From the NCBI GenBank assembly GCA_949288265.1, contig CASEJM010000009.1:1-40463 (forward strand): DNA of 40,463 bases, in the 5' to 3' direction. Below, one piece after another: positions 1,343-36,885 of the stretch. Source of the stretch: an uncultured Pseudomonadota bacterium. Lineage in GTDB: Bacteria > Pseudomonadota > Alphaproteobacteria > Rs-D84. The position numbers and the translations under genes are program-made. Numbering within the stretch: the stretch's first letter is position 1; each line of letters begins with the position of its first letter. The notes under the pieces are model-generated. The model was not told the origin of the DNA. It worked only from the letters and a program-made list of their open reading frames with translations, and did not search any database.

Positions 1343-1440
1343 TGTATTTCCCCTAAAAATAATGAATTGCTGAGTGATTATACACAGTTTTTTTATAAAC
1401 GCAATAATAAGTTTGTCGGACATGATGTCTTTTTATTTAC

Positions 1441-1469
1441 TTGTGTTTATTTTGTAGTGAGTATATAAT
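1441..1469 (+). promoter_or_regulatory. Sigma70-type promoter for the C4-like leader and Cys-rich gene
   Basis: TTGTGT (1441-1446), 17 bp, TATAAT (1464-1469). Confidence 0.65.
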
Positions 1470-1475
1470 GTTTGC

Positions 1476-1565
1476 TGTCAACAGGTATTCTGTTGATGGG
1501 GTGTGGAAACCTCGATGATAGCGTCGTGGTGTTAATTATGGCGCGTGGTTGCGCTGTTTTTATTA
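1476..1565 (+). promoter_or_regulatory. Upstream antisense target region (a1/b1-like) with hairpins
   Basis: 5' hairpin GTCAACAG/CTGTTGAT. GGGGTGTGGAAAC (1498-1510) and TGATAG (1516-1521) are complementary to GTTTCCAACCTC (1647-1658) and CTATCA (1638-1643). A GGCGCG/TGCGCT hairpin plus T-tract follows at 1540-1565. Confidence 0.55.
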
Positions 1566-1596
1566 TTACGATGAAACATAAACTCCTGATTTTTGT

Positions 1597-1668
1597 GTCA
1601 GGAGGGCCGCGAAATATTAAAAATACGCGACACAATTCTATCAATTGTTTCCAACCTCCTGACCACCA
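1597..1668 (+). ncRNA. C4/CI-like antisense RNA (tRNA-like fold)
   Basis: Closing stem GTCAGGAGG (1597-1605)/CCTCCTGAC (1655-1663), inner hairpins CGCG..CGCG (1608-1629) and ACAATT-CTATC-AATTGT (1632-1648), TTCCAA bulge, 3' ACCA. Family assignment is by architecture, not by a search. Confidence 0.6.
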
Positions 1669-1687
1669 AGTGTTTTGGTGGTTTTTT
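1662..1687 (+). terminator. Intrinsic terminator/attenuator within the leader
   Basis: ACCACCAA-GTGTT-TTGGTGGT followed by a T-run, about 30 nt upstream of the ATG at 1719. Confidence 0.65.
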
Positions 1688-1718
1688 CGTACGAAAAATA
1701 AAAACAGGAGATTGAAAT

Positions 1719-2342
1719 ATGATCAGTATAACAAAAATGATTTGCGGGACTGTATTCATTACGGTAGTAACCGCAAATATATGCAATGCCGCGGTTCAGT
1801 GTGGCATGGAAGTTTCAACGCAACCTAGCGGATATACAACGATTTCTCTGAATGTTGCTGATAATTGTTCGTCAACTAATCAGATATATTTCTGTGACCC
1901 AAACAGCAAACGATGTGATTTTGTTACCAGATGTAACACTTGCTCTAATTCAGGATGGACTATAAGTTATGATACTTATATTGATGGCACTGTGTGTACC
2001 GATATACCTATTACACAGTGTTGTAAAACTTACCCGGGACCGTCCGTTGGTACGTGGACAATAAATTCGTCAAATCGTGCATATCAATACAGACGAATCA
2101 AAAATTACAAATGTGATGGGACATATACTACAACAAATGAATATAGATGTGCGGCTGGATATTATGGTGATGCTAAAGGGACATCGCTTACCAATTTGAC
2201 GGGGTGCGTTCAATGTCCATCAGGTGGGACATCGGTGGCTGGTTCAACAGTAATAACATCTTGCTATTTACCATCTTGGACAACAGGCTCTGATTCCACC
2301 GGTAGTTACATATACACATCAGATTGTTATTACAATAATTAA
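1719..2342 (+). CDS. Secreted cysteine-rich protein (207 aa)
   Basis: SD AGGAG, signal-peptide-like N-terminus (..ANICNAA), about 17 Cys, motifs CAAGYYG and CVQCPSGGTS..GST.ITSCY, ends SDCYYNN. Confidence 0.85.
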   Translation: MISITKMICGTVFITVVTANICNAAVQCGMEVSTQPSGYTTISLNVADNCSSTNQIYFCDPNSKRCDFVTRCNTCSNSGWTISYDTYIDGTVCTDIPITQCCKTYPGPSVGTWTINSSNRAYQYRRIKNYKCDGTYTTTNEYRCAAGYYGDAKGTSLTNLTGCVQCPSGGTSVAGSTVITSCYLPSWTTGSDSTGSYIYTSDCYYNN

Positions 2343-2369
2343 AAAAATCCGCCAATCGGCGGATTTTTT
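2341..2369. terminator. Bidirectional intrinsic terminator
   Basis: A-run, TCCGCC-AATC-GGCGGA, T6 between convergent genes. Confidence 0.85.
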
Positions 2370-2380
2370 CCATAAACGTA

Positions 2381-2872
2381 TTAACGTTTGCTGAACTGTG
2401 TAGAACGACGAGCTTTGTGACGACCAAAGTGTTTACGTTCAACAACGCGGCTGTCGCGTGTCAAGAAGCCCGCAGCTTTTAATGTTTTACGTAAATCTGG
2501 TTCCGCTTTTTCAAGTGCTTTGGATATACCATGTTTTACTGCACCTGCTTGACCAGATAATCCGCCACCCATTACAATTGCGTGTACGTCATAGGCTGTT
2601 TCACGTTTTGTGATACCAAAAGGTTGTGCAATTATCATCTGTAATACAGGACGACGGAAATATTCCATCATAGGAATACCGTTAACGATGATTTGCCCCT
2701 TACCTGCAACTAAGTATACGCGGGCAACAGAATCTTTACGCTTACCCGTCGCGTAAGTCGCATTTGATAATTTAACATCTGCAACGGCTTTCTTTGCAGT
2801 TGATTTTGCAGGGGCCGCCTTTTTTGTTGTTTTGGCTGCTGTCTTTTTTACAGTTTTCTTTTCTTCTGTCAT
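2381..2872 (-). CDS. rpsI: 30S ribosomal protein S9
   Basis: [44 protein letters not shown]; Lys/Ala-rich N-terminal extension. Confidence 0.98.
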
Positions 2873-27753: not shown

Positions 27754-27781
27754 AAAAGTCCCCCAGACGGGGGATTTTTTT
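27752..27781. terminator. Bidirectional terminator between dnaK and rnpB
   Basis: A-run, GTCCCC..GGGGAT, T-run. Confidence 0.8.
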
Positions 27782-27784
27782 GTG

Positions 27785-28111
27785 ACAGATGAATGATAAG
27801 CCGGATTCTGTCCTGCCCCAGTTCAGTTTTATTAACCAATCTGAGGTAGTGAGCATAATCAATCTGCATCAAGTGTTACCACAAGATGTCAAGCCCTCTA
27901 CCCGTCCCCATGCGTGGGACTCGTTTCGGGGACCTATTTGAGGTTGCTGCGCATAGAGATTGCCCGTTTCACCCGATGTTTTTCAATCGATTCGTCACTG
28001 TTGCTCTAATCGTCGGATTGCTCCGCTCGGTCGTTAGCCGATATGCTGTCCCATGCAGTCCGGACTTTCCTCTGTCATATAAATTATGACAGCTATGCTC
28101 TATTCATCTGT
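27785..28111 (-). ncRNA. rnpB: RNase P RNA (about 327 nt)
   Basis: Minus strand has GAGGAAAGTCCGGACT near the 5' end and ACAGAATCCGGCTTA near the 3' end; P1 helix ACAGATGAAT/ATTCATCTGT; upstream TTGAAA..TGcTAAGCT promoter. Confidence 0.96.
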
Positions 28112-36811: not shown

Positions 36812-36885
36812 TGGTGCGGGCGAAGGGAATCGAACCCTCGTCTTCAGCTTGGGAAGCTGACGTGCTACCATTATACCACGCCCGC
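36812..36885 (-). tRNA. tRNA-Gly (CCC)
   Basis: GCGGGCG/CGCCCGC acceptor stem, anticodon arm TCAGC-TTCCCAA-GCTGA, GGTTCGATTCC T-arm, encoded CCA; 74 nt. Confidence 0.97.

What the first reader, a model, noticed from the sequence alone, without database searches (positions are those of the whole stretch)
1441..2369. Phage-type C4/CI-like antisense RNA cassette fused to a secreted Cys-rich gene, outside any prophage
Seen: a sigma70 promoter, a 5' hairpin, and sites GGGGTGTGGAAAC (1498-1510) and TGATAG (1516-1521). Next is a tRNA-like RNA (1597-1668) whose bulge (TTCCAA) and hairpin loop (CTATC) are complementary to those two sites and which ends in ACCA. A terminator and the Cys-rich gene follow. 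The whole unit is inserted between tig and rpsI. Known: this layout matches the P1 C4 and P4 CI RNAs, which are cut from their own leader by RNase P and act on complementary sites to cause premature termination or block translation. Inference: a phage immunity switch has been domesticated to control a surface or secreted protein. If such cassettes precede many Cys-rich paralogues with different loop/target sequences, they could form an RNA network for selective or mutually exclusive expression.
Basis: partly seen in the sequence, partly recalled or inferred. Interest (0 to 1): 0.9.

Follow-up and report, generated by a model that had tools for sequence, protein, structure and literature searches.

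The report
Self-targeting C4-like leader RNA cassette
A phage-style small RNA unit that pairs with its own leader sits in front of a secreted cysteine-rich protein gene, and it belongs to a large undescribed family found up to about fifty times per genome in tiny gut bacteria.

Summary
Window 1441-1690 holds a promoter, a hairpin, an a1 hairpin, b1, a small terminator (T1), a three-helix RNA (1597-1668) carrying b' and a', and a strong terminator (T2). A signal-peptide, 17-Cys ORF follows (1719-2342). The order of parts matches the annotated phage P1 c4 leader. No Rfam model reaches its threshold. A covariance model built here finds 8 copies in this 0.8-Mb genome, and copies in 35 of 36 genomes of the genus, 1-49 matches each. 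It also finds 1-3 copies in 10 of 149 other families of the class. a1/a' and b1/b' co-vary: 269 of 300 cognate positions pair, against 140 after permutation. Downstream genes are mostly secreted and Cys-rich. The unit is an insertion: 0 of 23 relatives carry it between tig and rpsI. Two points fail. There is no P1-type a2/b2 site at the ribosome-binding site. No cross-targeting between paralogues was found. I read it as a gene-specific, self-targeting C4/IsrK/CI-type leader switch. The mechanism is inferred.

The parts
1414..2343 (+). Inserted unit: promoter, leader RNA cassette and Cys-rich gene
   Evidence: The closest relative (L091) is near-identical up to about 1413 and again from the shared terminator. 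Its tig-rpsI gap is 136 nt. 0 of 23 relatives hold the Cys gene or a credible model match at this locus.
1441..1469 (+). Promoter-like site: TTGTGT, 17 nt, TATAAT
   Evidence: Read. TTG and TAnAAt align in the paralogous cassettes. The scan does not list it, because the -35 matches only 3 of 6.
1478..1496 (+). HP1, first hairpin of the a1b1 motif
   Evidence: It aligns to hairpin 1 of Rfam c4-a1b1 (sub-threshold). Present in all six aligned paralogues.
1498..1513 (+). a1 hairpin: 4-bp stem GGGG/CCTC with 8-nt loop TGTGGAAA, the target a1
   Evidence: The loop is complementary to a' at 1647-1654. Five variable positions pair perfectly in 29 of 30 parsed cassettes.
1516..1525 (+). b1 target (TGATAG) followed by the conserved CGTC
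   Evidence: Complementary to the b' loop. Position-specific pairing is perfect in 22 of 30; the other 8 have longer loops, and in the examples I read by eye they pair in a shifted register. By a flexible search, 35 of 37 have cognate a1b1, against 5.4% for non-cognate pairs.
1538..1562 (+). T1: GC-rich hairpin plus T-run, an internal terminator-like site
   Evidence: Present in 19 of 21 cassettes of this stem class and 0 of 15 of the other class. P1 has the same element, matched by the isrK model at 35 bits.
1583..1589 (+). S1: CTCCTGA, a near-copy of the 3' strand of the closing stem; alternative partner of 1598-1604
   Evidence: The S1:S2 helix is perfect in 31 of 37 and has at least 6 of 7 pairs in 37 of 37. 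It co-varies with the stem class. The control is 10.7% perfect.
1597..1668 (+). C4-like RNA. Closing stem 1597-1605/1655-1663; hairpin A 1607-1630; hairpin B 1632-1648 with b' loop 1638-1642; a' junction 1647-1654; tail CACCA
   Evidence: Folding z -5.5. In the model alignment 91% of cells pair, and 8 pairs show changes on both sides, reached by 0 of 500 shuffles. Model R1 scores 100.4 bits here.
1663..1687 (+). T2: intrinsic terminator CCACCAA/TTGGTGG plus T6
   Evidence: A terminator-like site after the RNA is present in 29 of 36 cassettes.
1706..1721 (+). Ribosome-binding site (GGAG 1707-1710) and ATG 1719
   Evidence: No code-specific a2/b2 site is present here.
1719..2342 (+). Secreted Cys-rich protein: 207 aa, 17 Cys, signal-peptide-like N-terminus, shared C-terminal module ending CYYxN
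   Evidence: No Pfam family. 66 homologues, none with a Pfam domain. The model has pLDDT 83.3, is all-beta and has no PDB fold match.
2341..2370 (.). Bidirectional terminator shared with rpsI
   Evidence: The same hairpin closes rpsI in relatives that lack the insert.

Best explanation
Window 1441-1690 is one member of a large, undescribed family of C4/IsrK/CI-type leader RNA modules. Its parts stand in the order seen in the phage P1 c4 leader: promoter, HP1, a1 hairpin, b1, terminator T1, a three-helix RNA with b' in a hairpin loop and a' in the 3' junction, then terminator T2. The selected interaction is between the RNA's a'/b' and the a1/b1 sites of its own leader. Each copy carries its own a/b code. 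This much is shown.

The rest is inferred. The leader is the 5' part of the transcript of the secreted protein gene, because there is no room for a second promoter. The gene is therefore made only by read-through of T1 and T2. The leader can switch between two folds. In the closed fold a1b1 pairs with a'b' and S1 pairs with S2. In the tRNA-like fold S2 pairs with S3, and that fold could be cut out, probably by RNase P. The released RNA, or the short a1b1 RNA that ends at T1, then pairs in trans with new transcripts of the same unit only. This would set how many transcripts or translatable mRNAs get through. That is a gene-specific feedback of the kind known from P4 CI and Gifsy-1 IsrK, not the P1 type of block at the ribosome-binding site. 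In this lineage the module has been multiplied and attached to cell-surface genes: secreted Cys-rich proteins, lipoproteins and glycosyltransferases.
For: Architecture. The element order and the three-helix topology match the annotated P1 record and its Rfam alignments. Sub-threshold Rfam matches fall in the right places and order: c4-a1b1 at 1465-1517 and sRNA-Xcc1 at 1597-1671.

RNA-level selection. Helices co-vary. a1/a' plus b1/b' give 269 of 300 cognate Watson-Crick positions, against 139.8 +/- 8.9 permuted (0 of 10000). Cognate a1b1 lies upstream in 35 of 37 and 43 of 53 copies, against 5.4% and 9.6% for non-cognate pairs. Duplex energy with the leader is -13.0 cognate against -8.7 non-cognate.

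Switch. The third strand S1 is conserved and co-varies (31 of 37 perfect). The minimum-energy fold of the whole leader is the closed form.

Own codes. In one genome (G013), 0 of 156 non-cognate pairs match at 9 of 10 or better. Five cassettes there share the a code and differ in b.

Termination. T1 is present in 19 of 21 cassettes of this class and T2 in 29 of 36.

Link to surface genes. Signal-peptide-like ORFs follow in 28 of 30 and 30 of 38 cases. ORFs with at least 8 Cys follow in 19 of 30 and 20 of 38. The genome background is 28 of 666 for ORFs with at least 8 Cys and at most 350 aa; the cassette counts carry no length limit. The four outgroup copies precede GT2 and GT10 glycosyltransferases, a lipoprotein-like ORF and a 462-aa ORF with no Pfam family.

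Precedent for self-targeting. IsrK acts in trans on its own read-through transcript, and P4 CI pairs with seqA and seqC (PMC4825925, sections 12 and 21 read).
Against: No RNA data exist. No RNA run holds the locus, so the transcript ends, the processing and even the transcription are unproven.

Neither folding test supports a simple mechanism. The T1 stem probability is 0.81 free against 0.85 with a1b1 blocked (n = 18). Blocking a1b1 closes the Shine-Dalgarno site in only 8 of 26 cassettes and opens it in 1.

The code positions are no more variable than the stem of hairpin A, which pairs only in cis. Mean pairwise difference is 0.62-0.74 at b, 0.38 at a, 0.64 in the hairpin A stem and 0.26 elsewhere. 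Diversity alone therefore does not prove trans action.

The RNase P determinants are weak in this very copy. [quoted passage not shown] The 3' ACC is present in only 23 of 37.

Reciprocal model searches fail. Rfam C4 does not find these RNAs, and my model does not find P1 C4 (4.5 bits, at the wrong place). Common descent with C4 is inferred from architecture only.

A paralogous Cys-rich gene works from a plain promoter without any cassette (C24).
Confidence: 0.55

Rival explanations
1. A switch that works only in cis. The a1b1:a'b' pairing and the S1/S2/S3 alternatives act solely within one molecule. They could serve as a co-transcriptional folding device, a thermosensor, or a processing and stability element that sets read-through of T2 or mRNA half-life. 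No small RNA acts in trans. The differences between codes are then drift with compensation.
For: The minimum-energy fold of the full leader is the intramolecular closed form. The code positions vary no faster than the stem of hairpin A, a purely cis helix. No second target of any of the 8 RNAs of this genome stands out. 35 of 37 RNAs have their target in the same transcript.
Against: All characterised relatives act in trans: P1 C4 (per the annotation of the P1 record), and P4 CI and IsrK. Ten of 53 copies in G013, mostly in tandem arrays, show no cognate a1b1 upstream by the search; in the one array I read, the first two copies follow a promoter directly. A cis-only device should not be kept in that form. 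T2 directly after the RNA looks like the end of a discrete small RNA.
Confidence: 0.25
2. The P1-type mechanism. The processed RNA pairs with a2/b2 sites over the ribosome-binding site of the Cys-rich gene and blocks its translation, with polarity.
For: In this window the RBS region (GGAGATTGAAATATGATCAG) loosely resembles a1b1, and CCUCC in the RNA is an anti-Shine-Dalgarno sequence. Seven of 37 cassettes have an a-like site downstream, against 10% expected. The C21 copy has a good one.
Against: Cognate and non-cognate pairs do not differ. The downstream a-site rate is 7 of 37 against 10.0%, and the b-site rate is 2 of 37 against 7.4%. Duplex energy with -35..+21 is -7.35 cognate against -7.00 non-cognate. 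For this window it is -7.2 against a column mean of -7.5. A terminator stands between the RNA and the RBS.
Confidence: 0.07
3. An RNA network between paralogues. Each cassette's RNA targets the leaders of other cassettes, so that only one or a few surface genes are expressed at a time.
For: There are many paralogous units per genome, each with a/b codes. The C9 and C4 copies share the a code.
Against: Every RNA's best site is its own leader. Within G013, 0 of 156 non-cognate pairs reach 9 of 10, though only 13 of 53 copies could be parsed. Across genomes, 3 of 870 non-cognate pairs are perfect; two of these are the reciprocal L026/L027 pair, which carries the same codes in two genomes. Exact bipartite searches in the own genome return the own leader, the antisense of the gene, and scattered hits with no leader context.
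Confidence: 0.05
4. A repeat without RNA function. It would be a mobile or recombination 'handle' of about 250 bp, MITE-like or a gene-conversion substrate, that spreads or shuffles surface-protein genes. The apparent structure would be incidental.
For: It is multi-copy. The unit is an insertion polymorphism. Metagenome contigs break or rejoin at the leader (DNA-like contigs of relatives). Some copies lie beside tRNA genes.
Against: Compensatory changes keep four helices and two long-range pairings. Orientation is always upstream of and co-directional with a gene, with promoter-like and terminator-like sites. No terminal inverted repeats or target duplication are seen at the insertion.
Confidence: 0.05

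Closest known systems
Phage P1/P7 immI leader: a1-b1, C4 antisense RNA, a2-b2, icd-ant (Rfam RF01695, RF03163)
   Same: The order and kinds of parts are the same: sigma70-type promoter(s), a two-hairpin motif with a1 in the second loop, b1, a hairpin plus U-run, then a roughly 75-nt RNA. That RNA has a long closing stem and two hairpins, with b' in the second loop and a' in the 3' junction. An upstream strand able to pair with the 5' strand of the closing stem is visible in P1 too (my reading).
   Different: There are no a2/b2 sites at the downstream RBS. A strong terminator follows the RNA. Hairpin A has a conserved 14-nt loop in place of a tetraloop. The downstream gene is a secreted host protein, not icd/ant. 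There are 8 to about 50 copies per genome. Neither covariance model detects the other family.
Gifsy-1 IsrK / STnc1160 (Rfam RF01394; PMC4825925)
   Same: The a1b1-type 5' part ends at an internal terminator. Read-through transcripts fold back on it. The short RNA acts in trans on its own long transcript. A processed RNA lies downstream (sections 12 and 21 read). The isrK model matches the a1b1-plus-T1 part of P1.
   Different: The isrK model gives no match here at E up to 10. The IsrK target lies within orf45 and controls a phage antiterminator cascade. Nothing comparable lies downstream here.
Satellite phage P4 seqA - CI RNA - seqC immunity
   Same: The RNA is processed from the leader of the operon it controls and is complementary to a site upstream of itself. 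The outcome is premature termination. I take this from the discussion in PMC4825925; further detail is recalled.
   Different: P4 also uses a downstream site, seqC. It is single-copy and serves phage immunity. I could not test the P4 sequences here.
Acinetobacter baumannii 'Group 1' C4-like sRNAs (PMC5320573)
   Same: It is a multi-copy (21) chromosomal family of C4-type RNAs. They are processed from longer transcripts at a GGW site and have variable specificity loops (section 16 read).
   Different: Those RNAs are found by the Rfam C4 model, and only a' varies. The paper reports an upstream 'Region 1' hairpin but no co-varying a1/b1 targets and no link to downstream secreted-protein genes. 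Its supplements were not seen.
sRNA-Xcc1 family (RF02221) of Xanthomonas and Xylella
   Same: This is the best, though sub-threshold, Rfam match to the RNA itself (30.4 bits). Tandem arrays occur in Xylella, where it lies beside C4 and isrK matches (PMC12189769, passages). That resembles the tandem arrays in G013.
   Different: The match is below the threshold of 53 bits. The sRNA-Xcc1 context is an integron or genomic island. No self-target has been described.

Membership tests
C4 antisense RNA (Rfam RF01695) | Match to the family covariance model at or above 45 bits | tested here: not met
   No match in the window at gathering score. None at E up to 10 in 1400-1760. None in 20 of the 30 G013 loci. 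The positive control, P1, scores 68.8 bits.
C4 antisense RNA (Rfam RF01695) | Topology: closing stem, two hairpins, b' in the second hairpin loop, a' in the 3' junction | tested here: met
   The structure was compared with the C4 consensus structure line and the P1 alignment.
C4 antisense RNA (Rfam RF01695) | Downstream targets a2/b2 covering the RBS of the next gene | tested here: not met
   Cognate equals non-cognate in the motif test and in duplex energy.
C4 antisense RNA (Rfam RF01695) | 5' end made by RNase P at a GG(W) site, with a 3' ACC tail | not testable with these tools
   Sequence only. GG starts the stem in 36 of 37 copies; the window copy is the exception. ACC follows the stem in 23 of 37. 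RNase P RNA is encoded in the window at 27781-28111.
c4-a1b1 motif (Rfam RF03163) | Match at or above 46.7 bits | tested here: not met
   20.1 bits, E 0.007 in a 361-nt search, at 1465-1517. P1 scores 51 bits.
c4-a1b1 motif (Rfam RF03163) | Two adjacent hairpins with a1 in the loop of the second and b1 just 3' of it, complementary to a'/b' of a C4-type RNA downstream | tested here: met
sRNA-Xcc1 (Rfam RF02221) | Match at or above 53 bits | tested here: not met
   30.4 bits at 1597-1671.
isrK (Rfam RF01394) | Match to the model: the a1b1 hairpins plus an intrinsic terminator | tested here: not met
   No isrK match at E up to 10. The terminator T1 itself is present.
Phage immunity region | Lies in a prophage or phage beside repressor or antirepressor genes | tested here: not met
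   The flanks are tig, rpsI, rplM and argS. Some copies in G013 do precede HTH_3 / Cro-C1-type genes.

The most novel reading that the evidence does not exclude
Each cassette is an independent RNA-only memory switch. Because the processed RNA recognises only the leader it came from, every surface gene has a private feedback loop. That loop could hold the gene ON or OFF and be inherited through the cytoplasm. The gene may encode a Cys-rich secreted protein, a lipoprotein or a glycosyltransferase. Dozens of such orthogonal loops in a 0.9-Mb genome would give combinatorial, phase-variation-like surface diversity without DNA rearrangement, repeat slippage or protein regulators. The phage immunity principle would thus be reused as the main gene-regulatory currency of a reduced genome. 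The same data would also show that the a1/b1 sites, still annotated as 'putative' in P1, are the conserved core of C4-type modules.
Probability: 0.18. Interest if true: 0.9.

Novelty: new variant of a known kind. Interest (0 to 1): 0.74.

Why it matters
C4, CI and IsrK are textbook but rare examples of RNAs that are cut from a leader and act back on their own operon. Until now they have been tied to phages and islands.

Here the same design is a mass-produced chromosomal leader. It occurs in 35 of 36 sampled genomes of a genus of roughly 0.9-Mb gut Alphaproteobacteria, with 1-49 matches each. That genus is probably Candidatus Enterousia, order Rs-D84. The name comes from one homologue's label and the description in PMC12306168 (passages). 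Copies also occur in other families of the class.

The design is bound to secreted and surface-modifying genes. In a genome of roughly 900 genes, about 50 copies means around one gene in twenty may be under this control.

The family is not caught by Rfam. It offers several hundred natural variants with compensatory changes, which is ready material for working out the rules of specificity of C4-type RNAs. It also gives the first strong comparative evidence that the upstream a1/b1 pairing is itself the selected interaction.

Finally, it points to which proteins these uncultured, probably partner-dependent bacteria vary on their surface.

Tried and rejected
Searches for trans targets. Two motif scans of the own genome that allowed mismatches or G-U pairs returned hundreds of hits and were uninformative. 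The exact bipartite scan returned each RNA's own leader, the antisense of its gene, and 1-15 scattered hits without leader context. With 11 specified bases, about one chance hit per genome is expected. Two whole-leader complementarity matrices were too permissive, so I replaced them with position-specific counts.

Orphan RNAs. For the two array RNAs in G013 that have no a1b1 of their own, exact targets were found only as the antisense of the genes themselves.

Folding tests of mechanism gave no clear answer.

RNA evidence. No RNA holder is listed for window 1400-2400. The two runs laid are 'probably DNA' contigs. They cover only the leader and the terminators at 80-95% likeness, so they are relatives' cassettes. 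This says nothing on expression.

Whole-collection scan. The DNA pattern scan of genome contigs found 4 unrelated stretches. The tool notes that records of the window's genome or of one very near it may be left out. It was useless for naming or for range.

Taxon. ARAGORN found no tmRNA, and the Atlas result for ArgRS was not informative.

Protein. No Pfam family. The Atlas gives only a weak lead at 0.76 to Ephrin-receptor-like/TNFR Cys repeats. There is no PDB fold match.

Model cross-check. R1 does not find P1 C4.

One R1 match of 19.2 bits (E 0.009) in the rpsI-tig gap of L098 was set aside as terminator-driven, on its 25% GC and weak score. The C30 match in the own genome (E 0.045) was judged false after reading.

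Literature. One six-term search was badly chosen and gave nothing relevant. The 16 papers that hold the word 'Enterousia' (I read passages of one) and the papers listed for 'c4-a1b1', 'C4 antisense RNA' plus 'RNase P', and 'sRNA-Xcc1' gave no sign of this family in the listings and passages I read. This is not proof that it is unpublished. Supplements were closed. Additional File 1 of PMC2864571 and Figs S1-S3 of PMC5320573 may bear on the comparisons with C4 and with Group 1.

Full report
WHAT IS THERE. The window is contig C9 of a 796,882-base, 43-contig genome rated 90.7% complete. Region 1441-2370 reads as follows.
- TTGTGT, 17 nt, TATAAT at 1441-1469.
- Hairpin HP1 at 1478-1496.
- A 4-bp hairpin at 1498-1513 whose 8-nt loop TGTGGAAA is site a1.
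- Site b1, TGATAG, at 1516-1521, followed by the conserved CGTC.
- A GC-rich hairpin with a T-run, T1, at 1538-1562.
- A strand S1, CTCCTGA, at 1583-1589.
- A 72-nt RNA at 1597-1668. Its closing stem is 1597-1605 with 1655-1663. Hairpin A is 1607-1630. Hairpin B is 1632-1648 with loop b' CTATC at 1638-1642. The junction a', GTTTCCAA, is at 1647-1654.
- A strong terminator T2 at 1663-1687.
- GGAG at 1707-1710.
- An ORF of 207 aa at 1719-2342, with a signal-peptide-like start and 17 Cys.
- A bidirectional terminator at 2341-2370.
The RNA and the whole leader fold far better than shuffles (z -5.5 and -6.0). The promoter scan does not list the promoter, because the -35 matches only 3 of 6. Its support is the perfect -10 and conservation among paralogues. 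The flanks are trigger factor, S9, L13 and ArgRS.

KNOWN RNA FAMILIES. At Rfam's thresholds the window has only RNase P RNA and one tRNA. With E-value reporting on 1400-1760, the two best matches are below threshold but sit in the right places. sRNA-Xcc1 covers 1597-1671 at 30.4 bits (threshold 53). c4-a1b1 covers 1465-1517 at 20.1 bits (threshold 46.7). C4 itself and isrK give nothing. For a real yardstick I fetched the annotated phage P1 record. P1 has promoters P2c4 and P1c4, then the two-hairpin c4-a1b1 motif (51 bits) with a1 in the second loop, then b1. A hairpin plus U-run follows, and the isrK model matches this part at 35 bits. C4 comes next (68.8 bits): a closing stem, a tetraloop hairpin, a hairpin with b' in its loop, and a' in the 3' junction. 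Sites a2 and b2 then lead into the icd ribosome-binding site. The window has the same parts in the same order up to the end of the RNA. After that it has a terminator where P1 has a2/b2. My model does not find P1 C4. The likeness is therefore one of architecture, not detectable sequence homology.

A FAMILY. BLAST in the own genome found related leaders in front of paralogous Cys-rich genes. I built a covariance model from six copies. On that alignment 91% of cells pair, and 8 pairs show changes on both sides, which 0 of 500 shuffles reach.
- The model finds 8 credible copies in this genome: C9, C4, C6, C21, C16, C12, C18 and C42.
- It finds matches in 35 of 36 other genomes of the genus, 1-49 each, and in 14 of 24 genomes of other families of the order.
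- Of 149 genomes from other families of the class, 10 have 1-3 weaker matches each.
- One near-complete relative, G013 (about 1 Mb, 5 contigs), has 51 matches.
- Rfam at gathering score sees none of the copies in 20 of the 30 G013 loci.
A homologue of the Cys-rich protein is labelled Candidatus Enterousia intestinigallinarum. That genus and its order Rs-D84 are described as gut Alphaproteobacteria with genomes under 1 Mb (PMC12306168, passages). This fits, but the naming is a lead, not a test.

THE PAIRINGS ARE SELECTED. I studied 37 cassettes: 8 from the own genome and 29 from other genomes.
- Thirty could be parsed by position. Three were not parsed and four were mis-anchored, and these were dropped.
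- Cognate a1/a' plus b1/b' give 269 of 300 Watson-Crick positions. Permuted partners give 139.8 +/- 8.9, and 0 of 10000 permutations reach the observed value.
- The a pairing is perfect in 29 of 30 and the b pairing in 22 of 30. The other 8 have longer loops; in the examples I read by eye they pair in a shifted register.
- Non-cognate pairs are perfect in 3 of 870 cases. Two of these are the reciprocal L026/L027 pair, which carries the same codes in two genomes.
- There are 14 a codes and 25 b codes.
- A flexible search finds the cognate bipartite site upstream in 35 of 37 copies, and in 43 of 53 copies in G013. Non-cognate pairs give 5.4% and 9.6%.
- Within G013, 0 of 156 non-cognate pairs reach 9 of 10, with 13 of 53 copies parsed. 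Five cassettes there share the a code and differ in b.
- A third strand, S1, just upstream of the RNA, is a near-copy of the 3' strand of the closing stem. It can pair with the 5' strand instead. This helix is perfect in 31 of 37 and co-varies with the stem class, against 10.7% in the control.
The leader therefore has two exclusive folds. The minimum-energy fold of the whole leader is the closed one, with a1b1 on a'b' and S1 on S2. A comparable upstream strand can be read in P1 (my reading).

WHAT IT IS ATTACHED TO.
- In the 37-set, 30 cassettes have an ORF of at least 50 aa starting within 220 nt. Of these, 28 look like signal-peptide proteins and 19 have at least 8 Cys.
- In G013 the figures are 30 of 38 and 20 of 38.
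- A deliberately generous background for the own genome gives 316 of 666 signal-peptide-like ORFs, and 28 of 666 with at least 8 Cys and at most 350 aa. The cassette counts carry no length limit.
- Other copies in G013 precede Cro/C1-type HTH genes and a GT8 glycosyltransferase.
- Some copies stand in tandem arrays. In the one array I read, the first RNAs have no a1b1 of their own.
- I read four outgroup copies. They precede a GT2, a GT10-like enzyme, a lipoprotein-like ORF and a 462-aa ORF with no Pfam family. All four keep cognate a1b1.
- Not every Cys-rich paralogue has a cassette.
- The Cys-rich protein has no Pfam family. It has 66 homologues without annotation, and a confident all-beta model without a PDB fold match.

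INSERTION. I fetched the rpsI locus from 23 other genomes of the genus. None holds the Cys-rich gene or a credible model match there. Seventeen have tig next to rpsI. The other six show no tig within the fetched stretch, and two of those loci are cut by contig ends. The closest relative matches the window closely up to about 1413 and again from the shared terminator, with 136 nt between the two genes. The unit at about 1414-2343 was therefore gained recently. I saw no terminal repeats.

HOW IT WORKS. The P1 mechanism fails the test. Downstream a-like and b-like sites are no commoner for cognate than for non-cognate pairs: 7 of 37 against 10.0%, and 2 of 37 against 7.4%. Duplex energies with the translation start region are alike, -7.35 against -7.00. 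With the leader they differ, -13.0 against -8.7. What remains is self-targeting, as in Gifsy-1 IsrK and P4 CI (PMC4825925, sections 12 and 21).

T1 is present in 19 of 21 cassettes of this stem class and in none of the 15 of the other class. T2 is present in 29 of 36. There is no room for another promoter, so I infer that the gene depends on read-through of both terminators. I also infer that the two folds, with the processed RNA or the short a1b1 RNA acting back on new transcripts of the same unit, set its level.

This step is not shown. Blocking a1b1 in silico does not change T1 formation (0.81 against 0.85). It closes the Shine-Dalgarno site in only 8 of 26 cassettes. The code positions are no more variable than the stem of hairpin A, so a purely cis switch remains a serious rival. 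The window copy lacks the GG start that 36 of 37 copies have, and the 3' ACC is not general. No RNA data could be had.

COMPARISON AND VERDICT. Multi-copy chromosomal C4-type RNAs are known in Acinetobacter baumannii (21 copies; PMC5320573, section 16). Tandem sRNA-Xcc1 copies are known in Xylella (PMC12189769, passages). Four things are new here. The family is divergent and Rfam does not catch it. The complete self-target is retained and co-varies in several hundred copies. The downstream target is lost in favour of a terminator. The module is amplified and coupled to surface genes in very small genomes. I file it as a new variant of a known kind. Its interpretation is right on layout, location and paralogy, and wrong or unproven on the mode of action and on the network idea.

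Noticed in passing
L086-L089 (outgroup genomes G167, G138, G117, G098): The same a1b1 plus C4-like leader, with closing stem GACTGGAAGG or GGCAGGAAGG and cognate codes, precedes GT2 and GT10-like glycosyltransferases, a lipoprotein-like ORF and a 462-aa ORF with no Pfam family. These genomes belong to other families of the class. The leader therefore goes with cell-surface genes beyond the Cys-rich family.
   Followed up: partly
L079 1780-2900 (G013:C4, minus strand); also L073, L063, L080: Tandem arrays of C4-like RNAs. In L079 the first two stand directly behind a promoter without a1b1 of their own. Their exact bipartite targets occur nowhere else in that genome. They may target foreign elements.
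   Followed up: partly
L079 about 2300-2460: Inverted-repeat elements beginning GTCATTGCGAGG, of REP/MITE-like appearance, lie between array members.
   Followed up: no
L073:1419-1769(-), L052:1498-1845(-), L067:1463-1786(-), L058:1944-2855(+): Some G013 cassettes precede HTH_3 / Cro-C1-type regulators, an immunity-region-like context. One precedes a family 8 glycosyltransferase.
   Followed up: partly
G000:C18:14107-14330: The C18 copy has no protein gene behind it. About 60 nt after the RNA it has a sequence (TTCAAAACGATTTAAGT) resembling a second a/b target, then a terminator.
   Followed up: no
window 1719-2342: The Cys-rich protein gives a confident all-beta model (pLDDT 83.3; residues 1-24 low) with no PDB fold match (best E 0.54). 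The invariant C-terminal module is YRCxxGYYG...GCxxC...CY...G...CYY.
   Followed up: partly
window 1596-1598: This copy is the only one of 37 whose closing stem does not begin with GG; it has TG. Its processing may be impaired or may differ.
   Followed up: no
L050 215-250 (phage P1, 48314-48349): Upstream of P1 C4, TTACGCCC can pair with GGGCGTGA in the 5' strand of the C4 closing stem. This is analogous to the S1 strand of the present family (read). I do not know whether it has been described.
   Followed up: no
window 27781-28111 (-) and 36815-36885 (-): RNase P RNA class A (198 bits) and one tRNA are the only Rfam matches above threshold in the window.
   Followed up: no
G000, all contigs: ARAGORN finds 37 tRNAs but no tmRNA in the 43 contigs of a genome rated 90.7% complete.
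   Followed up: no
G000:C24:16822-17370; C26:185-847; C19:18335-21301: Further Cys-rich paralogues lack a cassette: one with a plain promoter, one as the second gene of a tandem pair, and one very large (over 988 aa, 66 Cys).
   Followed up: partly
L058, L060, L078, L063, L064, L074, L075 (G013): tRNA genes lie within the fetched loci of several cassettes, three of them about 150-250 nt from the cassette.
   Followed up: no
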